Shown here: piece after piece, positions 1 to 63,261 of the stretch | Position numbering within the stretch: the stretch's first letter is position 1 | Layout of the letters: every line of letters starts with the position of its first letter | Source of the DNA: Eledone cirrhosa | Lineage: Eukaryota | Length of the DNA: 64,000 nucleotides | Assembly (NCBI GenBank): GCA_964016885.1 | Contig: OZ024740.1 | Coordinates: 225,618,001-225,682,000 of the forward strand | Direction of reading: 5' to 3' | Made by a program: the position numbers and the translations under genes | The notes under the pieces: generated by a model | What the model was told of the DNA's origin: nothing | Databases searched by the model: none | What the model saw: the letters and a program-made list of their open reading frames with translations, nothing else

Positions 1-3000
1 GGGTATTTTTGTTTGAGCAAAAATTCTCTCATTCTGTTAGGCGTTTGTTCCTGGTATTCGTATCTTCTACAATGGTACAAATTCTTCTGGCTAGGCAGTA
101 TGGGGTGTTGCGTTTTGTATGAGGTGGATGGCACGACTTAAAATTCAGATATAGATGGGTGTCTGTGTGTTTATAATATATATCCGTGGTAATGGTGGTG
201 TCGTTTTTTATTACCATTATATCTAGGAATGGTAATTTGGTCCTACTCATCTCTTTTGTGAATTGGAGAGATGGGTGCAGGTTATTCAGGAGGATATTGA
301 ACTCATCCAGAGTATCTAGAGATTCTGGCCAGATGATGAAACAAGATTTTTCAATGTACTTTCTAAAGTCAGTACTATATTGTTCCTCTATTTCTTGGTA
401 GAGTTGTCGTTCTAAGTATCCCATTACAGAGTTCGCGTAAACGGGAGCAAACTTCGTTCCCATCGCTGTGCCTCTAATTTGGATGTAATTCTTTCCATTG
501 AAGAAGAAAGTGTTGTTTTCCAGAATAAGTTTAACTGCATCTAATATAAATGGCGCTGTGAATCTGATGGGAATCACTTCTTTATGTTTTTCTACCCGAT
601 ATTTAACCGCCTTTATTCCTAAGTCATGTGTAATGTTGGTGTAAAGGCTTACCACATCCAAACTATGTAGAAGTGAATTCGTTTCCGTGGTTTTGGGAAG
701 ATAGGACAGGAAGTCGATATCATCCCGGATGAAACTGGTTATGTGAATACTTAGTGGTTTCAAAATAATGTCAACACAATTGCTTAGACGGTGGGTGGGC
801 ATGTTGGACCAGCTATAATAGGTCTAAGTTTTAAGTCTTTTGGGTGTAGTAATTTAATGTACTCACTGTTTTGTTCTCTTACTGCCAGTTGTATTTCTTT
901 TGACTTATGAACTTTCGGTAGGCCATACAGGTTGGTGGGTTTTGGCTCAAAATTGGTGATGTAGTCTCTTTCCTTATCAGTAAGTGAGTTGTGGTATTTT
1001 GAAGCCAGGTTGTTGATCTTCTTCATGATGTTGTGGTCTATATTTGACGGTATTTCATGATAGAATGTTGTGTCTTTCAGTTGTTCCTCAACCAAATCCT
1101 TGTAGTATTCAACATCCATTATAACAACTGCACCCCCTTTATCTGCTTGTTTAATTATCATTGTTTTATCATTTTGTATACGTTTAAGTGCAGACATTTC
1201 TGATTTGTTAATGTTTGGCCTAACATTAGTATTACGTCTAAGAGGAAATTTAGACAGGATGTCAATGTATTGGTCGGGATAGATATTTCTTCCTTTTGGC
1301 GGAGTGAATATTCTTTACTAGTGATTCATCACTCTCATTACTTTTATCAGCGAAGAATTCTACAAGACGTAATTTTCGACAGAATTCTTGGGTATCCTCC
1401 TTCAGTTCTTGGTGGTTGACTGTTGGAGTCGGTGTGAATTTCAGTCCTTTTGACAGAATTTGCATTTCATCATTGTCAAGATCTCTTTTGGATAAATTAA
1501 TTATTTTAGGATCTACGTGTACAGTTGTTTTGGGTATGTTTCCTCCTGGAGTTTTTCTTTTTCCGGTTTTTGTTGTTCTGACGTTAAAAAATGAATTTTT
1601 CTCTGTTCAGGATTTATATTCCTGTTGGTGTTTGCTTGATGAACTTTTGGTCGTGATATTATATTTGGTTTCGTTATGTATTTTGTCCTATTTTTGGTAT
1701 TATGTATATTATTTTTCCATTTCTTGTTAACATTATTTTTAACAATCTGGGCAAATGGCCTAGGTTTGCTTTCAGGTTTAGATCGTTTTTTTTCGCCCTG
1801 TTTCTTGTGGGTTATCTCTGTTGACATCTTGAGAGTGATCTGGTTATTCTACGTTTTGTTTCCCCGTTCCTTGTGGGTAGTCTCTGTTGAGATCTTGAGA
1901 ATGATCTCCTGGTTTTACTACTTCTCATGGTCTGGTCAAAGGCATATCTACCGTGTTTGTGCTTTTTGTTCATGTTGTGTGCGATAGGGTGTTTTTGTAG
2001 AAAAAGCGAAGAGTTATTACCGTAGTTCTTCTTTGATTCAAGGTAAGGTGAGTGTTTGTGTTGGCACGTGTTCTGGCGTATGTTGTGTTGGTGAGATTGT
2101 CCACTTTTAATGCTTTTTCTCAGGGTTCCAGAGTCTTTACCGTAATTTGCAGCATATTCGTCGAGAAATAATTGTTTCTGCTGCCATACCTTTCTTGATT
2201 TGTTTTCTTATTTTGAGATATCTCTGATCCATAGTTCTCGTAGTTTTTCAGCTATAATACCAGTCGTTAGCTTTGAAATTTCAACTTCAATTTGGTCTTC
2301 GATAGCTTTATATTTGGCTTTGTAGCGGGATTGTTTACATTGAGAAATGGAGATGTCGGTCCTGAATTTTGTCAATGTAAGTTCCCATCAGAGTTTTGTT
2401 TCTTCTTCTGGTTCTCCTGCAATTTCTGTAATTAGGTATTTACGAGGGAGTATGGGTGCCGTTAGAGAGAACCATTTCGAATGTGTTTCAACATATTTTT
2501 CGCATTTGTATGCTTTCCAGAAGTTTTGTTTTCTTATGCTAAGAAATGTTTTCCATGTCTTCCACATTTCTTTTCTTATTCGATGTGTTTTGTTTTCCAA
2601 ATTTCTTTCGTTTAGTTCTGACATCCAAGGGGGTTGTAGTAGGCTTTCTGTTGTATCTTTGATAACTGTTGGTATAATTTCAGCTAAATTCTTAATTTCA
2701 GAGTTTATATATTCAGTTATAAGTTTTCCGTCTGTAGATTGTTTTTCTATTTCCTTTAAAATAGAGGATTGTGTGTCAATCATCGTGATAAGTGTTGATA
2801 ATTTCGATGATATCTCCTTTAGAATTCTTTCTGATTCTGTTGATTTCATTTGTTGCTTTCCAGACATGTTGGCATATACACAATAGGAATATATAGATAG
2901 ATAAATATACACGGGTGTGTATGATTGTGTATAGAAGATTATATTAATAAAAGGAATTCCAACTTTGTCTGATTTACTCGTTTTATTTACAATCCTTTAA

Positions 3001-3138
3001 AATTTATAATGGTATTGGAATGAAATAGTATGGTAGAATATTAAATGTTAAGTGTTAATTGAATAAAGTACTTTCATGCTTTCGCAATCTTCAGGTTCAT
3101 AATGTGTGGTGACAGTCAAGTTTGCAATTTTCAACTGT
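1..3138 (-). mobile_element. Penelope-like retroelement (Neptune-like), degenerate: N-terminal region and RT, running off the left edge; upstream pseudo-LTR at 2912-3138
   Basis: Frameshifted ORF pieces 2388-2912, 1262-1465 (LSKGLKFTPTP), 784-1197 (IIKQADKGGAVVIMD, LYGLPKVHK, LRPIIAG) and 29-802 (LDVVSLYTNI, QIRGTAMGTKFAPVYAN, LPFLDI, TDIYYKHTD, HPPHTKRN) are typical PLE RT motifs. The catalytic RYLDD is deleted here but present in the copy at 20.4 kb. 2912-3138 is near-identical to the 3' end of that copy (18681-18900). Confidence 0.93.
3059..3100 (-). ncRNA. Minimal type I hammerhead ribozyme in the PLE pseudo-LTR (CUGAAGA core)
   Basis: Minus strand reads UGAAC-CUGAAGA-U-UGC-GAAA-GCA-U-GAAA-GUAC-UU-UAUUCA: stem II UGC/GCA, palindromic stem III AGUACU, slightly mutated stem I. 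Confidence 0.75.
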
Positions 3139-18594: not shown

Positions 18595-18683
<89 letters not shown>

Positions 18684-18823
18684 GTGTGTATGATGGTGTA
18701 TAGAAGATTAATAAAAAGAATTCCAACTTTGTCTGATTTACTCGTTTTATTTATAATCCTTTAAAATTTATAATGGTATTAGAATGAAATAGTATGGTAG
18801 AATATTAAATGTTAAGTGTTAAT

Positions 18824-18863
18824 TGAACAAGTACTTTCATGTTTTCGCAATCTTCAGGGTCAT
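18824..18863 (-). ncRNA. Minimal type I hammerhead ribozyme in the PLE 3' pseudo-LTR
   Basis: UGACC-CUGAAGA-UUGCGAAAACAU-GAAA-GUAC-UU-GUUCA. The consensus with the 3059 copy restores perfect stem I (UGAAC/GUUCA) and stem II (UGC/GCA). Confidence 0.78.
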
Positions 18864-19244
18864 ATTCTGTGGTGACAGTCAAGTTTGCAATTTTCAACTG
18901 TAATGAGATGGGTAAATTTTGTGCCTTATATACAGTGAAAAGCGGCTACAGAATGCTAGATTCTGCAAACTGTACTTCGACCAATCGGTGTGTAGTTTCA
19001 CTGGGTTATTAAAGCTGATTAGTTTAGGCGTCACGGTTGGTTGAGCATTTCTAACGACTACTATTTGAGCCTATCCAAAGCATCAATTGTTTTGCTATTT
19101 TTAGAAATGATGAAAATAGCATTTTCTAGTAATCATCACCATCAACATCACTTTTATTATTATTATTCTTGTTGTTGTTGTTAGTGGTAGTAGTCGACAT
19201 GGTCGTAGTCATAGTAGGAGTAATCCCCCATTATTATTGTTCAA

Positions 19245-19425
19245 GGGTGGTGGATTGGCAGTGTCAGTAGAGGGTCGGACGCCATGCTTTCCAGCATAGT
19301 TACGTCCCTTTACGATCTGAGTTCAAATCCCGCCGAGGTTGACTTTGCCTTACGGGGTCGATAAAATAAAGTAATAGTAATGCACTGGGTAATTGCTGGC
19401 CTTGTGCCTAAAGTAGAAACAATTA
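19245..19425 (+). mobile_element. SINE family A with TSD, inserted in the PLE
   Basis: Matches the 8238 SINE; flanking direct repeat ATTATTATTGTTCA. Confidence 0.9.
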
Positions 19426-20568
19426 TTATTGTTCATTTAGCTTGGGTTGGATTTTATCAATAAAATTATTTTCTTTGATTTTTCTCTTGATTTCACTTGG
19501 GCTGTGTAATTTGTAGAATGTAAATATTATAAATATTCTTTGACCACAGATGGTTACTCAGGGGTACCTGACGGACATTTGGGTCTCTGATTTGTTGTCG
19601 GTGCACCCGTGCACGTTCCGATAGTGCATTTCCAGTTTGAACGACATATAGTTAGTTCTTCACAATTCAGGCATTTAATGCAGTAAATTAGATTTCTGAT
19701 TTTGCAGTTCATATTTGTATATGGGAATATTTTCCCAGTTTTTGTGTACATATATTGACCGTTGTGTATGGATTGACATGTGCCACATCGACTATCATTG
19801 CATTCAGATGCAGTGAATGATTGGTCTTTGTTGTTAGTTCAAATTTTGTTTTTGTTAGTAATTGCCTCAAATTTTTCGGCTGTCTTTTACTAAGAGTCAA
19901 AGATCGGTCTGTGATGAAGCCTTTTAATTCATTACTTTGAGCAATGATCGGTAGGTTTGCTTTGGTAGTGTTGAAGATATTCTGGGTTGTGAAGGTATGA
20001 CCAGTTTCTTCTTCCTTGGGTTGTCCTGAGTTGTTGTATAGGTATTTTTATAGCCCGCTGTATGCCATTTTCTATAAGTAGAGATGGGTATTTTTGTTTG
20101 AGCAAAAATTCTCTCACTCTGTTAGGCGTTTGTTCCTGGTATTCGTATCTTCTACAATGGTACAAATTCTTCTGGTTAGGCAGTATGGGGTGTTGCGTTT
20201 TGTATGAGGTGGATGGTATAACTTAAAATTCAGATATTGATGGGTGTGTGTGTGTTTATAATATATATCCGTGGTAATGGTGGTGTCGTTTTTTATTACC
20301 ATTATATCTAGGAATGGTAATTCGGTCCTACTCATCTATTTTGTGAATTGGAGAGATGGGTGCAGGTTATTAAGGAGGATATTGAACTCATCCAGAGTAT
20401 CTAGAGATTCTGGCCAGATGATGAAAGAATCGTCAAGGTATCTCTTCCAAGATTTTTCAATGTACCTTCTAAAGTCAGTGCTATATTTTTCCTCTATTTC
20501 TTGGTAGAGTTGTTGTTCTAAGTATCCCATTACAGGGTTCGCGTATATAATATATATAGTATATATAT

Positions 20569-20599
<31 letters not shown>

Positions 20600-20686
20600 A
20601 TATATATATATAATGTATATAAACATATATAATATATCTTATATATATATATATATATATAATGTATATAAACATATATAATATAT

Positions 20687-20767
<81 letters not shown>

Positions 20768-20836
20768 TATGAAGAGAGAAGAAACATTTAGATATAATTA
20801 ATAATAAAGTGTATCATACCTAAACTGCTCCTACAT

Positions 20837-20926
20837 TCCTCGACTACGTAGTTTCGTGGCATAAACAAAAACAATATATCATAAAGATATAGCGTCCTTG
20901 CGAGGTCTGCCGACTTATCAAGAGGA
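20837..20926 (-). ncRNA. Type I hammerhead ribozyme, U3-A8 variant (595-bp monomer)
   Basis: Reverse complement of the motif at 22934-23023. Confidence 0.85.
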
Positions 20927-21431
20927 TACCTCATTTTACTAGTCTCAAGAACGCGTCTACACGACGTGAGAAAGAATCCCAAAAGGCGGAGGGGGAGAGA
21001 GTCACGCGATATAACGGTCGAGAAACAGAGCTAAGCCTCTTATAACCACGAAGAAAATACCACGGAGGCGGAGGGGGTATTCATATCGAGGCCGTAGAAG
21101 AGGTGGTGAAGAAGACGAGAAGTATGAGTAATGGAAGCTTTCCAGTTGTCCCCACACTTCAAAGATTGCTCGACCAGAGGGAGTTATTAAAAATATATTT
21201 AGAAACACACAGATACATGCGGACACACACATATATACATGAATGCATCCGCACCCAACTGTGAGTTAAGGGTGCCAGCTTCACCGATGTTGCTCAATGA
21301 ATGACTGGGACAGACCAATTCAGTTGAACTAGACTGAACCAGTATCAGAGTTAAAAATACATTATGAAGAGAGAAGAAACATTTAGATATAATTAATAAT
21401 AAAGTATATCATACCTAAACTGCTCCTAAAT

Positions 21432-21521
21432 TCCTCGACTACGTAGTTTCGTGGCATAAACAAAAACAATATATCATAAAGATATAGAGTCCTTGCGAGG
21501 TCTGCCGACTTATCAAGAGGA
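21432..21521 (-). ncRNA. Type I hammerhead ribozyme, U3-A8 variant (595-bp monomer)
   Basis: Same motif, 595 bp from the previous copy. Confidence 0.85.
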
Positions 21522-22339
21522 TACCTCATTTTACTAGTCTCAAGAACGCGTCTACACGACGTGAGAAAGAATCCCAAAAGGCGGAGGGGGAGATAGTCAC
21601 GCGATATAACGGTCGAGAAACAGAGCTAAGCCTCTTATAACCACGAAGAAAATACCACGGAGGCGGAGGGGGTATTCATATCGAGGCCGTAGAAGAGGTG
21701 GTGAAGAAGGCGAGAAGTATGAGTAATGGAAGCTTTCCAGTTGTCCCCACACTTCAAAGATTGCTCGACCAGAGGGAGATATTAACAATATATTTAGAAA
21801 CACACAGATACATGCGGACACACACATATATACATGAATGCATCCGCACCCAACTGTGAGTTAAGGGTGCCAACTTCACCGATGTTGCTCAATGAATGAC
21901 TGGGACAGACCAATTCAGTTGAACTAGACTGAACCAGTATCAGAGTTAAAAATACATTATGAAGAGAGAAGAAACATTTAGATATAATTAATAATAAAGT
22001 GTATCATACCTAAACTGCTCCATTCATGTATATATGTGTGTGTCCGCATGTATCTGTGTGTTTCTAAATATATTGTTAATAACTCCCTCTGGTCGAGCAA
22101 TCTTTGAAGTGTGGGGACAACTGGAAAGCTTCCATTACTCATACTTCTCGCCTTCTTCACCACCTCTTCTACGGCTTCGATATGAATACCCCCTCCGCCT
22201 CCGTGGTATTTTCTTCGTGGTTATAAGAGGCTTAGCTCTGTTTCTCGACCGTTATATCGCGTGACTATCTCCCCCTCCGCCTTTTGGGATTCTTTCTCAC
22301 GTCGTGTAGACGCGTTCTTGAGACTAGTAAAATGAGGTA

Positions 22340-22427
22340 TCCTCTTGATAAGTCGGCAGACCTCGCAAGGACTCTATATCTTTGATATATTGTTTTTGTT
22401 TATGCCACGAAACTACGTAGTCGAGGA
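22340..22427 (+). ncRNA. Type I hammerhead ribozyme, U3-A8 variant (595-bp monomer)
   Basis: UCCUC-UUGAUAA-GUCGGCA...UGCCAC-GAAAC-UACGUA-GUC/GAGGA; predicted cleavage after C22422. Confidence 0.85.
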
Positions 22428-22933
22428 ATTTAGGAACAGTTTAGGTATGATACATTTTATTACTAATTATATCTAAATGTTTCTTCTCTCTTCATAATGT
22501 ATTTTTAACTCTGATACTGGTTCAGTCTAGTTCAAACTGAATTGGTCTGTCCCAGTCATTCATTGAGCAACATCGGTGAAGTTGGCACCCTTAACTCACA
22601 GTTGGGTGCGGATGCATTCATGTATATATGTGTCTGTCCGCATGTATCTGTGTGTTTCTAAATATATTGTTAATAACTCCCTCTGGTCGAGCAATCTTTG
22701 AAGTGTGGGGACAACTTGAAAGCTTCCATTACTCATACTTCTCGCCTTCTTCACCACCTCTTCTACGGCCTTGATATGAATACCCCCTCCGCCTCCGTGG
22801 TATTTTCTTCGTGGTTATAAGAGGCTTAGCTCTGTTTCTCGACCGTTATATCGCGTGACTATCTCCCCCTCCGCCTTTTGGGATTCTTTCTCACGTCGTG
22901 TAGACGCGTTCTTGAGACTAGTAAAATGAGGTA

Positions 22934-23023
22934 TCCTCTTGATAAGTCGGCAGACCTCGCAAGGACGCTATATCTTTATGATATATTGTTTTTGTTTATG
23001 CCACGAAACTACGTAGTCGAGGA
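22934..23023 (+). ncRNA. Type I hammerhead ribozyme, U3-A8 variant (595-bp monomer)
   Basis: Stem I UCCUC/GAGGA, core UUGAUAA, stem II GU(C)GGCA/UGCCAC with a branched insert, GAAA, palindromic stem III ACUACGUAGU, GUC triplet. Confidence 0.87.
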
Positions 23024-23528
23024 ATTTAGGAGCAGTTTAGGTATGATACACTTTATTATTAATTATATCTAAATGTTTCTTCTCTCTTCATAATGTATTT
23101 TTAACTCTGATACTGGTTCAGTCTAGTTCAACTGAATTGGTCTGTCCCAGTCATTCATTGAGCAACATCGGTGAAGTTGGCACCCTTAACTCACAGTTGG
23201 GTGCGGGTGCATTCATGTATATATGTGTGTGTCCGCATGTATCTGTGTGTTTCTAAATATATTGTTAATAACTCCCTCTGGTCGAGCAATCTTTGAAGTG
23301 TGGGGACAACTGGAAAGCTTCCATTACTCATACTTCTCGCCTTCTTCACCACCTCTTCTACGGCCTCGATATGAATACCCCCTCCGCCTCCGTGGTATTT
23401 TCTTCGTGGTTATAAGAGGCTTAGCTCTGTTTCTCGACCGTTATATCGCGTGACTATCTCCCCCTCCGCCTTTTGGGATTCTTTCTCACGTCGTGTAGAC
23501 GCGTTCTTGAGTCTAGTAAAATGAGGTA

Positions 23529-23618
23529 TCCTCTTGATAAGTCGGCAGACCTCGCAAGGACTCTATATCTTTATGATATATTGTTTTTGTTTATGCCACG
23601 AAACTACGTAGTCGAGGA
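23529..23618 (+). ncRNA. Type I hammerhead ribozyme, U3-A8 variant (595-bp monomer)
   Basis: Same motif; GUC at 23611-23613. Confidence 0.85.
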
Positions 23619-23878
23619 ATTTAGGAGCAGTTTAGGTATGATACACTTTATTATTAATTATATCTAAATGTTTCTTCTCTCTTCATAATGTATTTTTAAC
23701 TCTGATACTGGTTCAGTCTAGTTCAACTGAATTGGTCTGTCCCAGTCATTCATTGAGCAACATCGGTGAAGTTGGCACCCTTAACTCACAGTTGGGTGCG
23801 GATGCATTCATGTATATATGTGTGTGTCCGCATGTATCTGTGTGTTTCTAAATATATTGTATATATATATATATATAT

Positions 23879-24073
23879 ATTTATTAAAATAACAGATTAA
23901 AGTTTAAACAAAGAATCGCTGCTTTCACCCTAAGGGTGAAAGCAGCGATTCTTTGCTTAAATTTTAATCTGTTATTTTAATAAATATTTGCTCTACGGTT
24001 CTTATATATTTGATATATATTTATCCTTATCGAGCCCTCTTTGGATTTTAGTCTTCAAATTTATTATTATTAC

Positions 24074-24075
<2 letters not shown>
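23879..24075. repeat. Fold-back palindrome (about 52-bp arms centred at about 23932) in a dispersed repeat also found at 37660-37830
   Basis: ttattaaaataacag...gctttcaccc-taa-gggtgaaagc...ctgttattttaataa. The right part is the reverse complement of 37660-37805. Confidence 0.9.
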
Positions 24076-24715: not shown

Positions 24716-25450
24716 CTTTCTCACTCTCTCAACCTTCTTGACCTCTTCCTGTTGCGCGCCCCACAATTTTCTACTTCCTCTTCACCAATTCCACGGATTC
24801 TACACCGCTGGCCACACTCTCTAGACATCTACCCGATAACACTCGGAATTTCACCATCTTTCCACACTCTCACCTGTAAAACATTCAGGAACACACACAC
24901 ACAAACACTTACACCATTTTCGCACACACGCAACCATAAATTCCCACGTATCCACACCACAAAAACACAGACACATGCATGTGTATCCTCACATACACCT
25001 ACTCTATCTCAGGACTCCACACGCTCCATCCTCCCAACCCTTCCGACCCCTCTCCATCTACATAGGCTTACACCCCACCCTACGTACACACTGTTTTCCT
25101 AATACCCGAGCATGGAACCTCATTCTCCCCCTAACTCTCACACTCACATCCACGCATACAAACACACACGTACGCCAACACATATACTCACACACCACCT
25201 TCCGCCCTCCCCGCTCGGACCCCCAATATTTTTGTTGATTATGTTGTAGGCTCCTCAAAAAACACTTCCCACTACAACACCGTTACCACAACATAATCAA
25301 CAAAAACATCATCAAATTCTCCTACAGCACCACACCTAACTTCCCACAAAACACTGTCTCCTCTAAAAACAAAAACTAAACCTCTATGGAAGAAATAACC
25401 TAAACACCAGTGGAGAGCCGACCAGGAGGTGTAACTGTCCTGGTAGATCC

Positions 25451-25885
25451 ATGTGCCCCCTCAACAATAGATGCCTAGATCGTAATGTGATCTACCAGTG
25501 CAACGTGAGGACGGACACCTCCAAAAAAGCTTATATAGGATTAACCGCTTGTGACTTCAAGACCCGGCTCTACCAACACCGACATACTTTACGAAACCCG
25601 GCCCGGCAACATGCCACTACACTTTCGGGCCACATCTGGGACCTCAAAGATTATAATATAACCTACAATCTCACTTGGAACTTACTGTCCAGAGATAACT
25701 CTTACACGGGAGGATGCCGTCCGTGTAACTTATGCTCGGAGGAAACATTACAAATGGTGTTTTCCAAGGACCAACTCCTAAACAAGAAAGACGAACTGGT
25801 AACCGCATGTAAACACAGATTGCGTAGGACTTACCTCGCCCTCAAACCCCATAATGACCCGGGGGAGGGGGGAGGCAAGGGCTGA
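25451..25885 (+). CDS. GIY-YIG endonuclease domain of a PLE (fragment of the element ORF)
   Basis: VIY...YIG, FKTR...H, and a C-terminal CxxC..E...LLN pattern. Confidence 0.88.
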   Translation: MCPLNNRCLDRNVIYQCNVRTDTSKKAYIGLTACDFKTRLYQHRHTLRNPARQHATTLSGHIWDLKDYNITYNLTWNLLSRDNSYTGGCRPCNLCSEETLQMVFSKDQLLNKKDELVTACKHRLRRTYLALKPHNDPGEGGGKG

Positions 25886-37627: not shown

Positions 37628-38841
37628 TGTATATAAATGCGTATATATATATATATAAATATAGTAATAATAATAAATTTGAAGACTAAAATCCAAAGAG
37701 GGCTCGATAAGGATAAATATATATCAAATATATAAAAACTGTAGAGCAAATATTTATTAAAATAACAGATTAAAGTTTAAGCAAAGAATCGCTGCTTTCA
37801 CCCTTAACGGGATCTTCTGAAACTAACAAAGTCTATCTGTGAACGCAGAAGTGAATATTTCAAAAATCTTTGCAACCGGAGGAAGACAGGAAGACGATAC
37901 TTTGGTTCGTGGAAACGTTCCCTGGCAAAGAACAGGAAAAAACGAATATAGTACGTCATTATTTGGAGCGGTGAAAAACAATTACACGCAAAGACAGAAC
38001 CACGTTTATGGTATAAAAAAGTCGTAGACTAATATTCTCTTAGGTGGTTAATAAATATATATAAATATATATATAACAACCTGTTGAGTCATTCTGCACT
38101 TTTAGTGATTAAATACCATATGCTGAACTACCATTTACCGGCTATATCCACGTGCGTCTATCTAATGCCCACACAAATATTACATACATACATAAATGCA
38201 CGCACACACACACACACATATATATATATATGTTTGCGTGTCTGTGTGTTTGTGTGTGTGTGTATTTGCGTGTGTGTGTATGTATGTATATATGGTTTAA
38301 TTAATATAATATAAATATGCAGAGCCATATTGAGATGTTTAATTTGAAGGTTTAATTGAGCCCATGAAATGTAGCTTTCCCCAAATGGGGGATATTTCAA
38401 AGCGCTAATCACATCTGTGACTTGAGCAGAGCTATATAGGCAGATTCATGTTTTTCTTAACATATGTACAGACCTTTAATAACTTTCGAAAGCTCAGTTG
38501 TTGGGTACTAACACCTGTTTCTATGAGACCCCTCCTTCCCCAGTGAAGTTGACACCCTGACAATCTCTTGTGAGTAGTTTGGATCACTGATCACAACTAT
38601 GGTTTCTTGGCAAACCAGATGTTATATACTAACAAGCAATATTGAATAAACCACGGAAAAAACGTCGGAAATATTAACTACTAGGAACGTATAAAAAGTT
38701 TTGACAAAAAACTTTGATTGAGAATAAAAAAACAAAACAAGACTGATAAGATTAGTTTCAACATATATCGGCGTTTCACCAAATATTGATCACTTATTAA
38801 ATACCTGGAAACGCACTGCCAAGACAGATAGGCTTCTAAAC

Positions 38842-47141: not shown

Positions 47142-48730
<1,589 letters not shown>

Positions 48731-49026: not shown

Positions 49027-49287
49027 GTATATGTATATATATATGTATATACATATATATATATATATATATATGTGTATATATATATGTATATACATAT
49101 ATATATATATATATGTATATACATATATATATATATATGTGTATATATATATATATATGTATGTGAATATAGACATAGAATATTCGAAAATATTCTGTAT
49201 GTTTATAATAAACATTTTGAAGACATAATCGCTATAGAATAGAATACGTCACGTATTACAATTAGATTCTCGATAAAAGCAAGGGAA

Positions 49288-49330
49288 GTAATCTACGCGT
49301 TTCATTCTTGTTAGAACTCATCAGGACTAC
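49288..49330 (-). ncRNA. Minimal type I hammerhead ribozyme (310-bp monomer)
   Basis: Reverse complement of GTAGTC-CTGATGA-GTTC-TAACAA-GAAT-GAAAC-GC-GTA-GATTAC. Confidence 0.92.
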
Positions 49331-49597
49331 ATATCCAGTGCTTTTATCGAGAATGACACAGCTAGAGACTTATAGAATACTTAGCTGTGTACAGGAACTG
49401 GTTTGAAAGAGCGGTTGCCGGTCCGGCAGAAATTAGAAATTGGAATGAATGCTCTGAAATAGCGATATATATGTGAATATAGACATAGAATATTCGAAAA
49501 TATTCTGTATGTTTATAATAAACATTTTGAAGACATAATCGCTATAGAATAGAATACGTCACGTATTACAATTAGATTCTCGATAAAAGCAAGGGAA

Positions 49598-49640
49598 GTA
49601 ATCTACGCGTTTCATTCTTGTTAGAACTCATCAGGACTAC
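49598..49640 (-). ncRNA. Minimal type I hammerhead ribozyme (310-bp monomer)
   Basis: Same motif. Confidence 0.92.
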
Positions 49641-49815
49641 ATATCCAGTGCTTTTATCGAGAATGACACAGCTAGAGACTTATAGAATACTTAGCTGTGT
49701 ACAGGAACTGGTTTGAAAGAGCGGTTGCCGGTCCGGCAGAAATTAGAAATTGGAATAAATGCTATAAATTCTATAAGTCTCTAGCTGTGTCATTCTCGAT
49801 AAAAGCACTGGATAT

Positions 49816-49858
49816 GTAGTCCTGATGAGTTCTAACAAGAATGAAACGCGTAGATTAC
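49816..49858 (+). ncRNA. Minimal type I hammerhead ribozyme (310-bp monomer)
   Basis: Stem I GUAGUC/GAUUAC, core CUGAUGA, stem II GUUC/GAAU, GAAA, palindromic stem III ACGCGU, GUA triplet; cleavage predicted after A49852. Confidence 0.93.
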
Positions 49859-50125
49859 TTCCCTTGCTTTTATCGAGAATCTAATTGTAATACGTGACGT
49901 ATTCTATTCTATAGCGATTATGTCTTCAAAATGTTTATTATAAACATACAGAATATTTTCGAATATTCTATGTCTATATTCACATATATATCGCTATTTC
50001 AGAGCATTCATTCCAATTTCTAATTTCTGCCGGACCGGCAACCGCTCTTTCAAACCAGTTCCTGTACACAGCTAAGTATTCTATAAGTCTCTAGCTGTGT
50101 CATTCTCGATAAAAGCACTGGATAT

Positions 50126-50168
50126 GTAGTCCTGATGAGTTCTAACAAGAATGAAACGCGTAGATTAC
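50126..50168 (+). ncRNA. Minimal type I hammerhead ribozyme (310-bp monomer)
   Basis: Same motif. Confidence 0.92.
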
Positions 50169-50435
50169 TTCCCTTGCTTTTATCGAGAATCTAATTGTAA
50201 TACGTGACGTATTCTATTCTATAGCGATTATGTCTTCAAAATGTTTATTATAAACATACAGAATATTTTCGAATATTCTATGTCTATATTCACATATATA
50301 TCGCTATTTCAGAGCATTCATTCCAATTTCTAATTTCTGCCGGACCGGCAACCGCTCTTTCAAACCAGTTCCTGTACACAGCTAAGTATTCTATAAGTCT
50401 CTAGCTGTGTCATTCTCGATAAAAGCACTGGATAT

Positions 50436-50478
50436 GTAGTCCTGATGAGTTCTAACAAGAATGAAACGCGTAGATTAC
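50436..50478 (+). ncRNA. Minimal type I hammerhead ribozyme (310-bp monomer)
   Basis: Same motif. Confidence 0.92.
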
Positions 50479-50745
50479 TTCCCTTGCTTTTATCGAGAAT
50501 CTAATTGTAATACGTGACGTATTCTATTCTATAGCGATTATGTCTTCAAAATGTTTATTATAAACATACAGAATATTTTCGAATATTCTATGTCTATATT
50601 CACATATATATCGCTATTTCAGAGCATTCATTCCAATTTCTAATTTCTGCCGGACCGGCAACCGCTCTTTCAAACCAGTTCCTGTACACAGCTAAGTATT
50701 CTATAAGTCTCTAGCTGTGTCATTCTCGATAAAAGCACTGGATAT

Positions 50746-50788
50746 GTAGTCCTGATGAGTTCTAACAAGAATGAAACGCGTAGATTAC
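50746..50788 (+). ncRNA. Minimal type I hammerhead ribozyme (310-bp monomer)
   Basis: Same motif. Confidence 0.92.
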
Positions 50789-51010
50789 TTCCCTTGCTTT
50801 TATCGAGAATCTAATTGTAATACGTGACGTATTCTATTCTATAGCGATTATGTCTTCAAAATGTTTATTATAAACATACAGAATATTTTCGAATATTCTA
50901 TGTCTATATTCACATATATATCGCTATTTCAGAGCATTCATTCCAATATATATGTATATATATATATATATATATATGTATATACATATATATATATATA
51001 TATGTATATA

Positions 51011-51096: not shown

Positions 51097-51579
51097 TAAA
51101 AATAAAAATAAAAATAATAAAATAAACAATGAAAAATAAGGGGTGCTATCAGTCACAGTTGGGCGGGGTGCTGTCAACATATAGTTACATACAAGCATAC
51201 ACATGGATAAGAGAACAGACAAGAGTAGATAAGATAGATAGGATTAGGTAAGAGTAGGTAAAAAATAGGTGAAAAACAGACTTATAATATATATAAGAAA
51301 ATATTTAAAAAAAAATATATAACAAACTTACATATAAAATATAAAATATACAGATAATAGTGATACAGGGTAAGGAATGAAATAAAATAATATAAAATTA
51401 AGATTAAAATTATATAAAATAGAACATAATATAATATAATCATAAAATAAGATAAAATAAGGTAAACTAAAATAAAATTAAATAGACTAAAGTAAAATAA
51501 TATAATATAAGATATAATTAAATGTAATTAAATAAATAAATAAATAAAATTAAATAAATAAATAAAATTAAAATTAAAA

Positions 51580-51611
<32 letters not shown>

Positions 51612-54207
51612 GTAAATAAATAAATAAATAAATGAAATTAAATAAATAAATAAATAAAATTAAATAAAATGAAATGAAATAAAATAAAATGAAATAAAGT
51701 AAATTGAGATAAGATATATATTTTTTTAGAATATATCTCTTGAATATATCAGGGGCCCACGAAGGCACTAAGTGTCACAGTTATCTGTATCACTTGACCA
51801 TTTTTTTAGAATATATTTCTTGAAAATATCAGGGGCCCACGAAGGCACTAAGTGTCACAGTCACCAGTATCACTTGACCATTGCAAGGCAATGGAGGCGT
51901 CCCAGGTTGGGCAGTCTCAAAAGTTCACTCGAAAGTCACGGGTGTGCATTCACACAGTTGAGCGGTGGGGTAATCACAAACCGGTTCACACCCGGGCAGG
52001 AGTCCAATGGTCAAACAGAGGTGCATCGAAGGAAGGTAGGAGAATTCACGTGCAGTAGCAAGAGGCCGAAAGCGAGGTGCAGGCGGGTTAGCCAAAGCAA
52101 GCAGACACAGTTGGAGCGCATACAAAAGATATATAAAAAGACAAAAGATATATAAAAAATAGCTTCAAGAGCCATGAAGTCACCGCATTGGGACATCACA
52201 ACATTGTACACACCAATATGTTCAGCACGTATATGCACATATACACACCACATGCATATGCAGAGACGGTATACATATATATATATTTTTTTATATACAG
52301 ACATATACAACCACCTACACCCATACACATATAAATGTATACACAGACACACACGCACACACACACAGCGTAGGACACCCGGGTCAAAGCTGATATTAAA
52401 CACAGAAATACCACATTAGGCAAGACCCACCACCACGGATAATACGTTCAAAATAAATACATACGATGAGATGTAGTAAAATAAAATTGATCCTACGGAG
52501 ATAATCATGTCCGCACGTGCCATTGCCCGATTTAAGTGTACACAGACCGTTAGTAACTACGGAGGGCTATCGGGGCCAAAACGTTACTTTCGGGATCATA
52601 ACAACGACCGTCAATATATAGAAGGCCGATCGTGCTAGAAAGACTTGTATGGGTGTAGGTGGTTGTATATGTCTGTATATAAAAAAAAATATATATATGT
52701 ATACCGTCTCTGCATATGCATGTGGTGTGTATATGTGCATATACGTGCTGAACATATTGGTGTGTACAATCTTGTGATGTCCCAATGCGGTGACTTCATG
52801 GCTCTTGAAGCTATTTTTTATATATCTTTTGTCTTTTTATATATCTTTTGTATGCGCTCCAACTGTGTCTGCTTGCTTTGGCTAACCCGCCTGCACCTCG
52901 CTTTCGGCCTCTTGCTACTGCACGTGAATTCTCCTACCTTCCTTCGATGCACCTCTGTTTGACCATTGGACTCCTGCCCGGGTGTGAACCGGTTTGTGAT
53001 TACCCCACCGCTCAACTGTGTGAATGCACACCCGTGACTTTCGAGTGAACTTTTGAGACTGCCCAACCTGGGACGCCTCCATTGCCTTGCAATGGTCAAG
53101 TGATACTGGTGACTGTGACACTTAGTGCCTTCGTGGGCCCCTGATATTTTTAAGAAATATATTCTAAAAAAATGGTCAAGTGATACAGATAACTGTGACA
53201 CTTAGTGCCTTCGTGGGCCCCTGATATATTCAAGAGATATATTCTAAACAAATATATATCTTATCTCAATTTACTTTATTTCATTTTATTTTATTTCATT
53301 TCATTTTATTTAATTTTATTTATTTATTTATTTAATTTCATTTATTTATTTATTTATTTACTTATTTATTTATTTATTTATTTAATTTTAATTTTAATTT
53401 TATTTATTTATTTAATTTTATTTATTTATTTATTTATTTATTTAATTACATTTAATTATATCTTATATTATATTATTTTACTTTAGTCTATTTTATTTTA
53501 TTTTAGTTTACCTTATTTTATCTTATTTTATGATTATATTATATTATGTTCTATTTTATATAACTTTAATCTTAATTTTATATTATTTTATTTCATTCCT
53601 TACCCTGTATCACTATTATCTGTATATTTTATATTTTATATGTAAGTTTGTTATATATATATTTTTTTTTTATATTTTCTTATATATATTATAAGTCTGT
53701 TTTTCACCTATTTTTTACCTACTCTTACCTAATCCTATCTATCTTATCTACTCTTGTCTGTTCTCTTATCCATGTGTATGCTTGTATGTAACTATATGTT
53801 GACAGCACACCGCCCAACTGTGACTGATAGCACCCCTTATTTTTCATTGTTTATTTTATTATTTTTATTTTTATTTTTATTTTTATTTTTATTTTTATTT
53901 TTATTTTTATTTTTATTTTTATTTTTATTTTTATTTTTATTTTTATTTTTATTTTTATTTTTATTTTTATTTTTATTTTTATTTTTATTTTTATTTTTAT
54001 TTTTATTTTTATTCTTATTTGTACTTTTACTTCCTTAATATCCTTTATCTTCTATTATTTTTCATTCTTCAATGTCTTGGATTTGTTATTGCTTGTGTGG
54101 TATGTAATTAACCTTTATGCTCTGATGAGTCTCACTTATAGTGCGGATGAAACAATGTTAGCAAGTAAAGATATGCATATGCTATAGGCGTTCTTTGTTA
54201 TTTATTA
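51097..54207. mobile_element. HHR-terminated non-coding element with about 1.23-kb inverted arms (51097-52327 / 52646-53885) and a 318-bp spacer, flanked by (TA)n
   Basis: Mirror-image ORFs in the track (51772..52155+ versus 52818..53201-). Internal 80-bp tandem duplication at about 51720/51800, (TTTTTA)n tract at 53860-54012, HHR near the right end. Confidence 0.88.
54118..54163 (+). ncRNA. Type I hammerhead ribozyme
   Basis: UGCU-CUGAUGA-GUC-U-CACU-UAU-AGUG-CG-GAU-GAAAC-AAU-GUU/AGCA. Confidence 0.8.
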
Positions 54208-55810: not shown

Positions 55811-58222
55811 CTCTTTTACTCTTTTACTCTTTTACCTGTTTCAGCCATCCGGCTGAGGCCATGCTGGGGCACCGCCCTTGTTGCTACACATTTTATCTCC
55901 AGCCTGTATAGGTTGGCCACTGGTGTAGGAGGGAGTTTGTTGCTGCTGCCCTTAGGTTTCCCTCGTGTCTTGCTGTGGGCTCATCCGGGATCCTGGATAA
56001 CAAGGTGTCGAGATGTTTCTTAAAGACATCCACCTCCACGTCATGCAAGTCTCGCAGATGCCTCGGCAGCCTGTTGAAGAGTTGAGGGCCCTTGAATCCC
56101 AGGCTATTGCAATACCTGCTCCTTATTCTAGATGTGGAAGACGGGACCTTTGGCACCACACAGTGACGTCCTGTTCGACGGTTGGTCCAGCTCCCAATGC
56201 CAAAGTTTGGTGCTAGTCCCTCCAGGATTTTCCACATGTAGATCTCTGCGTATCTCTCCCGTCTTCGCTCCAAGGAGTAGAGGTTCAGTTCCTTCAGCCT
56301 CTCCCAGTAGCTTGTCTCCCTCATCTTGGCAATCCTCTTGGTGTAGCTTCGCTGGATTGCCTCAAGCTCTGTGGTTAGTTTGACACTATGGGGTGACCAC
56401 AGCTGGGAGCAGTAGTCCAGGCGGCTTAGGACAAAAGTCCTCCACAGTGTCAACATGGTGTCTCGATCTCTTGTAAGGAAAGTCCTCAAGATCCAGCCAG
56501 CGAATCGTCTACATGCTGTCGCCACCTTCATGATGTGTGAAGAAAAAGATGCATCATCGCTCATGTCTATGCCCAGGTCTCGTATCGATTTTGACACGGG
56601 GATATCGGTCCCTCCTGGTCCTGTGTAGCTGTGTTCCGCTATATTTGTGTTTGTGTTTGCAGGTTTGTATTGTAGGGCTTGGAATTTGCCAGCATTAAAC
56701 TGCATGTTGTTTTCTTCCGCCCATCTGTATATGGCATCCAGATCCTGCTGTAAGAGGGCAGCGTCAGCCGGGTTTTTGATTGCCTGTGCTACCTTAGTGT
56801 CATCAGCATAGCTAGTGAGGGATGTTGTTGCATGCACCACAGAAGGCATGTCCGAGAGAGCCACCAAAAACAGTAGTGGTCCCAGGACTGTCCCCTGAGG
56901 CACCCCACTTGTTATCGGTGTTTCCCTCGAGAGGGCCCCATTTGCTGCGACTGCCTGGCTTCTGTCCCTTAAGAAGCCATGCAGCCACTCACCTACTTTT
57001 CCAGTTATGCCGAGTCCGTGTAGTTTGTGACATATCATTCCGTGGTCGACCTTGTCAAAGGCCTTCGCAAAGTCAAGATATATCACGTCTACATGTGAGC
57101 TGTCTAGTAGTTGTCTCAGTACCCAGTCGTAGTGATGTAGCAGCTGTGTAAGGCAGCTTCTTCCTGGGCGGAAGCCATGTTGCGTGCTAGTCAGGCGGTC
57201 ATTTTCTTCGAGGAAAGTGATTAGTTTCTTTCTGACGACTCGCTCCATGACCTTACTGATATGCGACGTCAGGGAGACTGGCCTATAGCTCTTGGCCTCC
57301 GCTCTACTACCTCCTTTATGGATAGGGCATATTGTGCCTTCTTTCAGCTCCCTGGGTAGTACACCGCTAGCCAAGGAGCTTCTGAAGAGCATCTTCAGTG
57401 GAGTTGCTAAGGCCCGCTTACATATTTTTAGGAGAACTGCTGGGAATCCATCAGGTCCAGCAGCCGAGTCTGTTCTAATTTCATCAATGGCGTACACCAC
57501 ATCCTCCTCATGTTATGTCTATGTGGTTGATGGTTGCCATTTCTTGATGTAGTGTTGTGGCATCAAATAACTCCTCTGGCTTCGTTATTTGCATGTGCCT
57601 CAGTGGACATGTGAAGACACTTTTGTACTGTTCGTTCAGTATTTCACATATCTCTTGGGGATTTTCGGTTAATGAACCGTCCGTGTGGAAGAGTGGTCCA
57701 ATCTTGCAGTGTACTGAGGCAGTTTCTTTTGCAAATTTAAAGAACGCCTTAGGGTTTGTTTTAATGTTTTCTATGGCCCTGTTCTCTTTTCTTGCCCTCT
57801 CATTCTCATGTGAAAGCTTGAGTGCAATCTCGGTGTCAAGTAGTGCACGTTTCAAATAGGATTCCTTCTTGTTTTGGTTTTGTTGACTATTCAACTGGTT
57901 TGAGAGTTTAGTTCTACGTCTCATAAGGATTTTCCTATCTCTGGGAATAAGATTTTTGTGTCTGTTTGCCTCTTTCTCCGGGACACACTTATTGCATATG
58001 GTGTGTATCGTTGTCATGAAGTGTTGAAATTGTGTGTTAGTGTCTTGTGTGGCGATGTTTGCACTCCATGTTTGCTTCCGGATTTCACTCTTAATCTTCT
58101 TCCAGTCAGCCCCGTAGAAGTTAAGGCTGGATAGCGTCCCGGAGCTTCTTGGTGGTTTTGTCTCTGTTGGTTCTCTTGGACCACATATCATTAGCTCTAC
58201 CAAGTTATGATCCGAGAGAATT
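55811..58222 (-). mobile_element. LINE family B (CR1/L2 group), 5'-truncated; RT ORF 55893-57500 plus frameshifted linker 57508-58203
   Basis: AAGPDGFP, YRPVSLTS, QHGFRPGRSC, YLDFAKAFDKVDH, SGVPQGTVLGP, YADDTK. 3' stem-loop TCAGCC/GGCTGA and (AGTAAAAG)n tail abutting (TA)n. Confidence 0.96.
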
Positions 58223-58563: not shown

Positions 58564-61500
58564 ACTTTGAATAACTTTGAAATGTTTTGGCCAGTATTGG
58601 CCCAGGCCATGTCTAACTTAATAGCACCACCTGGCGAAGTCTTTCAATTCAGGATTTGGGCACCATGGCCCATTCGAGAAGAGAATTACTGTTTGCGGAG
58701 ACATATCCGGGTGTGGGTGGTTTGTCCGGGATTACTTGGAGGAATTTGTCCAAAGACTTCTTGAATTTTGTGTGGTCAGTTTCTGTTTTGACGTGTCCTG
58801 GTGTGATGTTGAAGAGAGCAGGGCCGATTGAGGTGAAATAATTGTGCCGTATTGTTGTTATGAGTTGCGATTTAGATTTTTGAATGGGACGGATAGCACG
58901 GGGCCCAAGCCTTGGGTGTATCTTGAAGGCGATGCCAACATCATTTGGGCAGTGATGATGGAACATTTTCCACATCATGCAGATAATATAACGCTCACGG
59001 CGACGTTGGAGTGAGTAAAGTTTCAGGTTTTCCAATCGACCCCAGTAGTCAAGGTCTGACATGCCATCTATCTTTTTCGTGATTGCCCTTTGAGGAGCTT
59101 CAAGTTTCATGATACTTTGTTTCGTGTGGGGAGACCACAGTGGACAACAGTATTCAAGGTGTGGTCGGGCGAAAGTAGAGAAGAGAAGGATAATGGTGCG
59201 GGAATCTCTCGACTGGAAGGTTCTGAGGATCCAGGAACACATTCTGCGGGCCATGTCAACTTTGCTGCTTATATGCGTGGTCCAGATTATGTTGCTGTCC
59301 ACGGTTACTCCCAAGTCTCTGATGTTGTTAGATGCCACGAGAGTTTCCCCGGAGGGAAGGGAGTACGGGAGTTTCAGAGCATCCTCTTTTCCAAAGTGGT
59401 TCAGTTCGAATTTGTCTTCGTTCAGTAACATGTTGTTCTTTTCTGCCCATTGGGTAACAGCCAGTAGGTCTGACTGAAGGCTTATCCGGTCATCCACGCC
59501 ATTGATGACCTTTTGGAGCTTGGAATCATCAGCGAAAATTTTAATGTTGCTGTGTTTGATGATGTCAGTGATGTCATTAATATAGATGATGAAGAGAAGT
59601 GGGCCCAACACAGTGCCTTGTGGGACTCCACTACTGACTTTGGCTGGGCTTGATTTGACTCCCTCAACTACAACATGTTGGGTTCTGTTTGACAGGAAGC
59701 TCTTGATCCACTGCAGCAGCTTTCCAGTTGCACCAATATTGGACAGCTTTCTCAGTAGAATGTTATGATCAACCCTGTCAAAGGCCTTGCTGAAATCAAG
59801 GTAGATAACATCAGTGTTGGAACCCTCTCCCAAGGCTCTCAAAATGTCATCAAAGTGATGCAGTAGTTGCGTCAGGCAATCCCTTCCATTACGGAATCCA
59901 TGCTGGTTGGAGTTCAGCATATTGTTACTCTCAAGGAAGTGGGTCATTCGCGATCTCACCACTCGCTCAAATACCTTAATGATATGAGAGGTGAGTGAGA
60001 TTGGACGGTAATTCACGGCAAGGGATTTGTTTCCCTTTTTGAAAACTGGGACAACAGACTGGGATAGAAGGTTTTCTGGCACATATCCAGCATCCAGTGA
60101 GTTCCGCCACAGATTGGCAAGAGGAGAAGCAAGTTGGTGTTGACACGCCTTCAAGACACAAGCAGGGAACCTATCGGGACCTACTGCTGAATTATGCTTG
60201 ATTTCCTTTATTGCCGCCAAGACATCAGGGGCGCCAAACGTTATGTCCGATAAGGTGTAATGGGGAGTAACATCGCCGATACAGCCCAGATCGGCCATAT
60301 CAGGATTGCTGAAAACAGAGCAGTATTGTTTCTGCAGTATCTCACCCATGGTTTTAGCATTGTCTTGAAGAGTGCCATTTTCATCAATTAGAGGGCCAAC
60401 AGTAGAGCCAGTGATTTTGTGTTTTTTTTGCAAATGAAAAGAACACTTTGGGATTGAGTTTGATCTTCTCAATGGCCCAGGCCTCTTCAGCTCTTCTCTG
60501 ATTGTTGATGAGGGACATTATGTTGTTTTGGAGGTTATGTTTTTTAATCTCTAGTGATGAAATGGCAGTCAAGTTGATGTGTTGCTGCTGACAGTATTTC
60601 AGCTTGTTGATTTTTTTGTTCGTTCTCTTAATTTTTCTGATGAGTGTTTTTCTATTTCTAGGGATTCTGCTCTTAGATTTGTTTATAGTTCTTAATGGGG
60701 TGTGTTTAGCACATATGTTTGTAACAGTGTCCACAAATGTCTGCCAGGACTTTTTGATGTTAGTGGGTGTATGAGTGTGCGTGAAGGACCAGTCGACATG
60801 TGCAAGATCATGACTGATCGCTTCCCAGTTTGCATTGTGGAAATCCATAGCGTCAAACGGATGGACAGGAGAAATGACATTGGGTTTGTATATTGGACGG
60901 TGGAAACTCAGATCACAGAGAACCATGTCATGATCAGAGAGTAGAGTTTTCTCCACTGCAATATTGTGGATATTGTCAGTGTGATTGCTGAAAATTAAGT
61001 CTAGGACGTTTTTGTGGCACCTCGTTGGTTCGAGCACTAGTTGGGATAGGAAGAAATCATCCATGAAGTCAAGAAGCGATTCCACAGCTTCCCTGTCAGA
61101 GGTTGAGGCAGAAGAACCTGGTGGCAGGGTGTTTGTGGACCAGTCAACTCCGGGGAGGTTGAAGTCCCCCATCATTAAGATGTTGTCAGGGTGACACTCT
61201 TGGATGAAACACTTTATGCTGTTGAGGCATTCCTTGAAGCATGGTACAGGCGTTTGGGGTGGCCTATAGAGCCCAACTACTAATAGGTTGTTGGTTTGAC
61301 TGAATACAGTGACTGCCTCACAGTATCCATTAGTGAATATGTTCATAGCCTCTGTTGAGAAAGAATTATGGACATAAATGGCAGTTCCGCCCTTTCTTCT
61401 GCCAGCGCGATCAGCACGGATGGCTTTGAAATTTTTCACTTTCACCTCGGCTTCCAAGTGGAGGTTACTGAGATGGGTTTCAGTGAGGACGAAGAAAGGG

Positions 61501-61587
61501 ATGTGGTTTGGATGGACATCAATCCAGTCCTCCAGGAATTTGATCTTCCATTTTTGAGTATTGGTGGAAGGGCTGGTGGAATAACTA
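58563..61587 (-). mobile_element. LINE family A, near-complete ORF2 (APE endonuclease plus RT) with one frameshift at about 60420
   Basis: APE motifs LTETHL, GGTAIYV, GLYRPP, MGDFNLP, PTR..NVLDLIF and SDHDMV (60384-61587); RT 58649-60472; tail (TTCAAAGTTA)n. Confidence 0.97.

Positions 61588-63261
<1,674 letters not shown>

What the first reader, a model, noticed from the sequence alone, without database searches (positions are those of the whole stretch)
20763..23860. 595-bp ribozyme concatemer with a rare U3-A8 hammerhead and a branched stem II
Seen: five HHRs, one per 595-bp monomer. The core reads UUGAUAA instead of CUGAUGA, so C3 and G8 are both changed to U3 and A8. Stem I UCCUC/GAGGA, the 10-nt palindromic stem III ACUACGUAGU and the GUC triplet are intact. 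Stem II encloses about 45 nt with two sub-hairpins (CCU/AGG and AUAUC/GAUAU). Established: positions 3 and 8 form a tertiary Watson-Crick pair, and U3-A8 is a functional but uncommon variant that CUGANGA searches miss. Inference: a second, unrelated retrozyme-like family with a monomer larger than the few hundred nt typical of animal non-LTR retrozymes.
Basis: partly seen in the sequence, partly recalled or inferred. Interest (0 to 1): 0.9.

Follow-up and report, generated by a model that had tools for sequence, protein, structure and literature searches.

The report
Hammerhead retrozyme with two-site Penelope insertion
This is one of thousands of copies of a small non-coding jumping repeat in an animal genome that carries a predicted self-cutting RNA fold of an already described variant, and its mirror-image insertions always use two fixed end points, which suggests that a borrowed retrotransposon enzyme likely copies one RNA from two places at once.

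Summary
Five type I hammerhead motifs with a U3-A8 core are real (0 of 2000 shuffles). But the array is a head-to-head inversion (two units minus, three plus, joined at 22021) in (TA)n, and stem II is not branched: 27 copies support one long hairpin plus a likely 6-bp pseudoknot. The genome holds 6635 exact matches to the motif. U3-A8 is already described in animal Penelope-like elements (PLEs), and 595 bp is within the published retrozyme range, so this is a non-LTR retrozyme.

The informative part is the insertion pattern. 3' ends fall at two sites about 165 nt apart (PLE tails are 30-40). Of 88 inverted insertions, 83 use one site on each arm, none uses the same site twice, and 5 are atypical. 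Where measurable, both arms share a haplotype, and in 12 cases neither arm contains the other. This fits a PLE reverse-transcriptase dimer priming both cut strands on one RNA, likely a circle. Cleavage, expression and the partner PLE are not shown. The scan reported this family, with the same reading, on other DNA of this genome.

The parts
20544..20764 (.). (TA)n microsatellite, left target of the insertion
20762..22021 (-). Minus arm, 2.1 units. 5' end at monomer position 11, 3' end at site A (monomer position 80; position 1 = 23019)
22021..23860 (+). Plus arm, 3.1 units. 5' end at monomer position 192, 3' end at site B (position 247)
22021..22021 (.). Head-to-head (5'-to-5') junction of the two arms, 1-nt overlap
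20837..20926 (-). U3-A8 type I hammerhead, predicted cut after 20842
21432..21521 (-). U3-A8 type I hammerhead, predicted cut after 21437
22340..22427 (+). U3-A8 type I hammerhead (2-nt deletion in the distal loop), predicted cut after 22422
22934..23023 (+). U3-A8 type I hammerhead: stem I 22934-22938 with 23019-23023, core 22939-22945, palindromic stem III 23008-23017, predicted cut after 23018
23529..23618 (+). U3-A8 type I hammerhead, predicted cut after 23613
22927..22959 (+). Predicted 6-bp pseudoknot: UGAGGU (22927-22932, 5' of stem I) with ACCUCG (22954-22959, internal loop of stem II)
   Evidence: 95.7% of cells paired, U-G/U-A/C-G at the terminal pair; little two-sided covariation, so inferred
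22960..22994 (+). Unbranched distal hairpin of stem II (up to 15 bp)
23019..23089 (+). Hairpin 3' of the cut site; pairs GAGGA with UCUUC and is predicted to block stem I once transcribed
23694..23860 (+). The approximately 165-nt 'tail' between site A and site B, present at the outer end of this arm only
23860..23879 (.). (TA)n, right target of the insertion

Best explanation
The locus is one insertion of an abundant non-coding repeat with one U3-A8 hammerhead motif per 595-bp unit (a non-LTR retrozyme), laid down in a TA microsatellite as two head-to-head arms that end at two fixed sites, likely by the enzyme of a Penelope-like retrotransposon copying a single, probably circular, RNA from both sites. 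Steps: (1) Arrays are transcribed (inferred; no RNA data). (2) The hammerhead cuts after GUC, probably during transcription, before the downstream hairpin captures GAGGA (predicted). (3) Monomers are ligated into circles (inferred from other retrozymes). (4) A PLE protein dimer cuts both strands of (TA)n, and each subunit primes reverse transcription at one of two internal sites, monomer 78-80 and 242-252. The two fixed ends and their one-each use are shown; the dimer is inferred from PMC11167929. (5) Each subunit copies a variable length, often several turns, and the two cDNA ends join, mostly through 0-9 nt of overlap (junctions shown; route inferred).
For: There are 6635 exact motif matches in G000 against 0 for the reversed control. 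The motif is conserved: 0 of 41 hammerhead positions outside the search pattern differ between old and young subfamilies, against 114 of 595 overall. The 3' ends fall at two sites. Of 88 resolved inverted insertions, 83 carry one of each, 0 carry the same site twice and 5 have one atypical end (hand count). Single-arm copies use the two sites equally, 19 and 18. Arms of one insertion differ by a median of 0 (n=50 pairs with enough overlap); arms of different loci differ by a median of 1.8%. Alleles that segregate in the family are in all units of a stretch 184 times and in only some units 24 times. In 12 insertions neither arm's range contains the other's. 5' ends are not enriched at the cut site (6 of 202, p=0.13), so reverse transcription runs through it. 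A PLE protein cuts and extends both strands, is predicted to be a dimer, and starts at two internal sites that bound the tail (PMC11167929). Inverted copies, a one-sided tail and (TA)n bias are PLE hallmarks (PMC8557442). A PLE family in the window also has two 3' ends.
Against: No cleavage or expression data exist. The partner PLE was not found: there is no similarity to the pLTR of the window's PLE, and no PLE frame was seen running into an arm among the tblastn hits in 220 loci. The tail is 4-5 times longer than described PLE tails. In vitro, PAc showed no difference in start site between the two strands, which does not by itself predict one-each use. The window's own array is more mosaic than most (1.1% between units against 0.6% on average and 0.07% in L258), and some arm pairs differ (L139 13 of 394, L007 6 of 331). 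In Xenopus, 8 of 9 tested retrozyme dimers did not cleave. Folding predicts no stem I once 70 more nt are present.
Confidence: 0.6

Rival explanations
1. The same element and enzyme, but the template is a linear, uncut multimer transcript of a homogeneous source array, or two RNAs from one source locus. The ribozyme is needed at another step.
For: PAc used unprocessed RNA in vitro, and its hammerhead mutants inserted normally. Source arrays are themselves homogeneous. There are no RNA data.
Against: A new variant arises in one unit, yet variants are nearly always array-wide (184 against 24), up to 13 units, which needs a single-unit bottleneck. One array exceeds 25 units, while median arms are 0.56-0.76 kb.
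Confidence: 0.25
2. The inverted arm arises by fold-back self-priming of one cDNA or of an antisense template (PMC3846280), with endonuclease trimming making the tail (PMC8557442).
For: Some junctions are near-mirror (L027 409/405, L150 343/343, L158 175/175, L251 409/405). The arms share a haplotype.
Against: In 12 insertions neither arm lies within the other (L089, L106, L121, L136, L191, L192, L203, L207, L208, L209, L264, L280), and three are fully disjoint. Either arm can be the longer one (p=0.82).
Confidence: 0.08
3. A DNA-level satellite or an assembly fold-back artefact in which the hammerhead is inactive or arose by chance.
For: Cleavage is untested. The window's own junction was not bridged in four short-read contig sets.
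Against: Thousands of dispersed copies with fixed, unequal ends and different flanks. Short-read contigs laid across the window's inversion show 12 other joints between its two arms. The motif is selectively conserved, and 0 of 2000 shuffles carry it.
Confidence: 0.05

Closest known systems
Animal non-LTR retrozymes (Cervera and de la Pena 2020, PMC7229834; Li, Clavereau and Pollet 2026, bioRxiv 10.64898/2026.07.22.740005)
   Same: Non-coding tandem units with one type I hammerhead each, dispersed in thousands of copies. Short helix III (2 bp plus palindromic tetraloop). Size within the 51-972 bp range.
   Different: U3-A8 core. Stem II is about 55 nt inside, with a long hairpin and a predicted pseudoknot. 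The ribozyme is predicted to be blocked by self-pairing in the monomer, which PMC7229834 says is unusual for metazoan retrozymes. In the parts read, neither paper describes inverted two-site insertions.
Endonuclease-bearing Penelope-like elements (PMC8557442, PMC3846280, PMC11167929)
   Same: Head-to-head inverted 5'-truncated copy, a tail on one end only, (TA)n targets, two fixed internal start sites, type I hammerhead.
   Different: No ORF. The tail is about 165 nt instead of 30-40. Both arms can be multimers of several units. No homologous pLTR was found.
U3-A8 minimal hammerheads of Schistosoma mansoni Cercyon PLEs (PMC4209133) and U3-A8 natural variants (PMC3088659)
   Same: The same compensated 3-8 pair, in an animal PLE context.
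   Different: Here the motif has a helix III, a much longer stem II and a predicted pseudoknot, and it sits in a tandem non-coding unit.
L1 twin priming
   Same: Two primers at one cut give divergent arms joined by microhomology.
   Different: As recalled, L1 uses the poly(A) end plus a variable internal site and copies non-overlapping parts. Here both sites are fixed and the arms overlap repeatedly.

Membership tests
Type I hammerhead ribozyme | Conserved core (with a 3-8 pair), G10.1-C11.1, GAAA, UH triplet, three helices | tested here: met
   stem I 95.6%, stem II base 97.5%, stem III 100% of cells paired in 27 copies; U3-A8 complementary. No C3-G8 version in the family (0 matches); U3 with a non-A8 in 14 copies. 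No Rfam hammerhead model matched.
Type I hammerhead ribozyme | [quoted passage not shown] | tested here: inconclusive
   A 6-bp pseudoknot fits, but only one cell changes on both sides, 24 of 500 shuffles reach the covariation score, and one strand lay in the search pattern.
Type I hammerhead ribozyme | Self-cleavage | not testable with these tools
   No assay. 5' ends of genomic copies are not enriched at the site.
Non-LTR retrozyme | Tandem units with a type I hammerhead in each | tested here: met
Non-LTR retrozyme | Non-coding and dispersed | tested here: met
   Longest ATG ORF 76 aa; copies on many contigs
Non-LTR retrozyme | Expressed as linear and circular monomer RNA | not testable with these tools
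   No RNA run was listed
PLE-mobilised element | Inverted 5'-truncated copy head-to-head, with a tail on one end only | tested here: met
   83 of 88 inverted insertions, 0 with like ends
PLE-mobilised element | Insertion into AT-rich or (TA)n targets | tested here: met
   Nearly all 3' ends abut (TA)n
PLE-mobilised element | Tail of 30-40 bp | tested here: not met
   About 165 nt here. The 310-bp family in the window has about 30 nt.
PLE-derived element | Sequence homology to the pLTR of an autonomous PLE | tested here: inconclusive
   None to the window's PLE ends; no short-stem-II relative with this stem III; other PLE families of the genome were not surveyed.

The most novel reading that the evidence does not exclude
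A PLE reverse-transcriptase/endonuclease dimer loads on one circular retrozyme RNA at two copies of a start motif about 165 nt apart. Each subunit primes from one strand of the cut TA repeat, and both roll round the same circle by strand displacement. This would explain the head-to-head, one-tailed structure of Penelope insertions in general, without antisense self-priming, and would be genomic evidence that retrozyme circles are transposition templates.
Probability: 0.45. Interest if true: 0.7.

Novelty: new variant of a known kind. Interest (0 to 1): 0.45.

Why it matters
The ribozyme variant and the element class are known. Two questions remain open in the papers read: how PLEs make inverted, one-tailed insertions, and whether retrozyme circles are really copied by PLE enzymes. 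This family gives a clean record: thousands of young copies, two widely spaced start sites that are easy to tell apart, and haplotype-marked arms. It turns a qualitative remark (a tail often at one end only) into a strict rule and gives a defined RNA for an in vitro test.

Tried and rejected
Branched stem II: rejected.

A-to-I editing footprint: one search showed an A>G excess among array-wide variants (17 against 7 T>C). After removing ancestral alleles, and in 48 new loci, it vanished (1 against 4; all loci 10 against 10). Rejected.

In vivo cleavage read from 5' ends at the cut site: not enriched; L020 and one arm of L285 start exactly there.

Register of the two sites from the window's unit variants: not resolvable.

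Expression: no RNA holder was listed. The runs laid are contigs of unrecorded kind; a 620-nt self-closing contig in X4 cannot be told from a collapsed tandem repeat.

Rfam: nothing at gathering score, and only weak hairpin matches below it. No tRNA. The promoter scan is bacterial and uninformative. The metagenome scan gave 0 matches.

Partner PLE: not found. DNA searches in G000 score only the top candidates, so counts come from pattern searches.

L082+L095 (over 25 units) has an unresolved right end and was left out of the count. Duplicated stretches (L165, L289, L199/L200) were counted once.

Full report
Observation. The region holds a 595-bp repeat with five hammerhead motifs: three on the plus strand (C17 at 22422, 23018, 23613) and two on the minus strand (21437, 20842). 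Each reads UCCUC, UUGAUAA, stem II, GAAA, CUACGUAG, UC, GAGGA. None of 2000 dinucleotide shuffles of one monomer gave such a motif. Rfam had no match. Numbering the monomer from 23019, the minus arm runs from position 11 (22021) through 2.1 units to position 80 (20762), and the plus arm from position 192 (22021) through 3.1 units to position 247 (23860). Both outer ends abut (TA)n. The longest ATG ORF is 76 aa. The unit is unrelated to the 310-bp hammerhead array at 49155-50947.

Family. The window lies in G000, a 3.0-Gb assembly. Its repeats reminded me of a cephalopod; that is recalled and untested. The pattern stem I + U3-A8 core + gap + stem III has 6635 exact matches against 0 for the control. 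The C3-G8 form has 0 matches, and U3 with another base at position 8 has 14. So the pair is fixed in this family and shows no covariation within it. An older group (472 matches) is 73-92% identical to the window copy and has the same two ends; its search pattern contained most of the core. Between old and young copies, 114 of 595 positions differ in 40% or more of old copies, but 0 of the 41 hammerhead positions outside the search pattern do. Young copies vary less in the core (0.36% against 1.8%), though part of that sample was picked by the core pattern.

Ribozyme fold. On 27 aligned copies, stem I, the stem II base and stem III are paired in 95.6, 97.5 and 100% of cells. The distal stem II forms one hairpin of up to 15 bp (90.3% paired; nine pairs vary on one side and two on both; one pair runs U-A, U-G, C-G). 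The CCU instead lies in ACCUC(G/A), complementary to UGAGGU just 5' of stem I. This 6-bp pseudoknot is paired in 95.7% of cells while the bases upstream vary. Covariation is weak (24 of 500 shuffles reach the score), so it is inferred; pseudoknots between stems I and II are common in hammerheads (PMC3088659, passages). Helix III is 2 bp plus a palindromic tetraloop, and two copies co-fold as a double hammerhead (-61.9 kcal/mol against -42.0 for two singles). Once 70 nt downstream are present, GAGGA is predicted to pair elsewhere (p 0.94-0.97) and stem I vanishes. This suggests cutting during transcription and a protected monomer; it is a prediction only.

Insertion pattern. 3' ends fall at site A (monomer 74-83, mostly 80) or site B (241-253). 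I counted inverted insertions by hand in four samples. Similarity-ranked: 19 of 19 had one end of each kind (one further array unresolved). Position-ordered: 20 of 22. Two subfamily samples, chosen mostly for having several units: 33 of 35. Old copies: 11 of 12. In total 83 of 88 were mixed, 0 had like ends and 5 had one atypical end (L116, L140, L204, L260, L274). Single-arm copies in the position-ordered and subfamily samples end at A 19 times, at B 18 times and elsewhere twice, so independent choice would give about half like-ended pairs. In old copy L094 the two sites share a motif, and in the consensus fold each follows a hairpin. Short-read contigs of other runs show both TA-joined ends and 12 further joints between the two arms, so this is not an assembly fold-back, although the window's own junction was not bridged.

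Template. The arms of one insertion are identical in 52% of 50 pairs (median difference 0); arms from different loci are identical in 1.2% (median 1.8%). Family-level alleles occupy all units of a stretch 184 times and only some units 24 times; 11 of the 24 come from two stretches that hold two insertions, and 3 from the window. In 12 insertions neither arm's range contains the other's, and three are disjoint, so one arm is not a fold-back copy of the other. 5' ends are spread round the unit and not enriched at the cut site (6 of 202). Together these fit one single-unit template read repeatedly from two sites, most simply a circle. A homogeneous linear multimer is not excluded. The window's array is more mixed than most (1.1% between units).

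Comparison with what is known. Non-LTR retrozymes are tandem type I hammerhead repeats expressed as circles, with PLEs proposed as drivers (PMC7229834, passages and part 4 of 6). Consensus sizes reach 972 bp, and Xenopus families resemble pLTRs (bioRxiv 10.64898/2026.07.22.740005, parts 1-3 of 5). U3-A8 is described in about 1300 Schistosoma PLE hammerheads, and circle-templated reverse transcription was proposed there (PMC4209133, parts 1-2 of 4). PLE insertions have an inverted copy, a 30-40-bp tail often at one end only, and a (TA)n bias (PMC8557442, passages; PMC3846280, passages, which proposes antisense self-priming). A purified PLE protein cuts and extends both strands from two internal sites (PMC11167929, parts 1-2 of 4). 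Searches listed no paper that, in what I read, reports a strict one-each rule, a 165-nt tail or this family. I saw no supplements, and subscription papers are not searched, so either may bear on this.

Context. The 310-bp family shows the same rule with a tail of about 30 nt (4 of 4 inverted copies). A PLE family in the window has two 3' ends, but its pLTR is not similar to the 595-bp unit, so the partner is unknown. Earlier notes of this scan, opened after my reading was fixed, describe the same family and mechanism at other loci and other U3-A8 families in this genome. They agree but are not independent support.

Verdict. The feature is real and is a variant of a known class. The headline features of the finding are either known (U3-A8, size) or wrong (branching). 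The two-site, single-template insertion record is what deserves follow-up.

Noticed in passing
window 49155-50947: A 310-bp array with a canonical C3-G8 type I hammerhead, two units minus and four plus, in (TA)n. It has two fixed 3' ends about 30 nt apart, one on each arm in 4 of 4 inverted copies; 163 candidates in the genome search.
   Followed up: partly
window 18681-20545 (-) and 1-3138 (-): Two broken copies of one PLE family (RT, CxxxxxCxxC linker, endonuclease region), with a minimal hammerhead in the pLTR and two 3' ends in (TA)n or (CT)n.
   Followed up: partly
window 23877-24075 and 37662-37806: A small inverted insertion next to the array: a 108-nt palindrome whose right arm runs about 90 nt further, so likely another long-tailed family. 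The second copy has a hammerhead-like CAGAAGA...GAAA stretch.
   Followed up: partly
window 25367-25885 (+): Endonuclease-like remnant of a second PLE type; related pieces occur near many loci.
   Followed up: no
window about 51286-53700: A large inverted duplication: mirror-image repeat sets around 52480.
   Followed up: no
window 47357-48682, 55893-57512, 58649-61736: Several non-LTR RT and endonuclease ORFs, interrupted by or embedded in long (TA)n tracts, partly duplicated.
   Followed up: no
L082+L095 (G000:C1:193981000 onward): One arm of the 595-bp family exceeds 25 units and its end was not reached.
   Followed up: partly
window 23379-23395 and 23459-23472: A repeated CCCCCTCCGCCT motif in the monomer, conserved between subfamilies; role unknown.
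   Followed up: no
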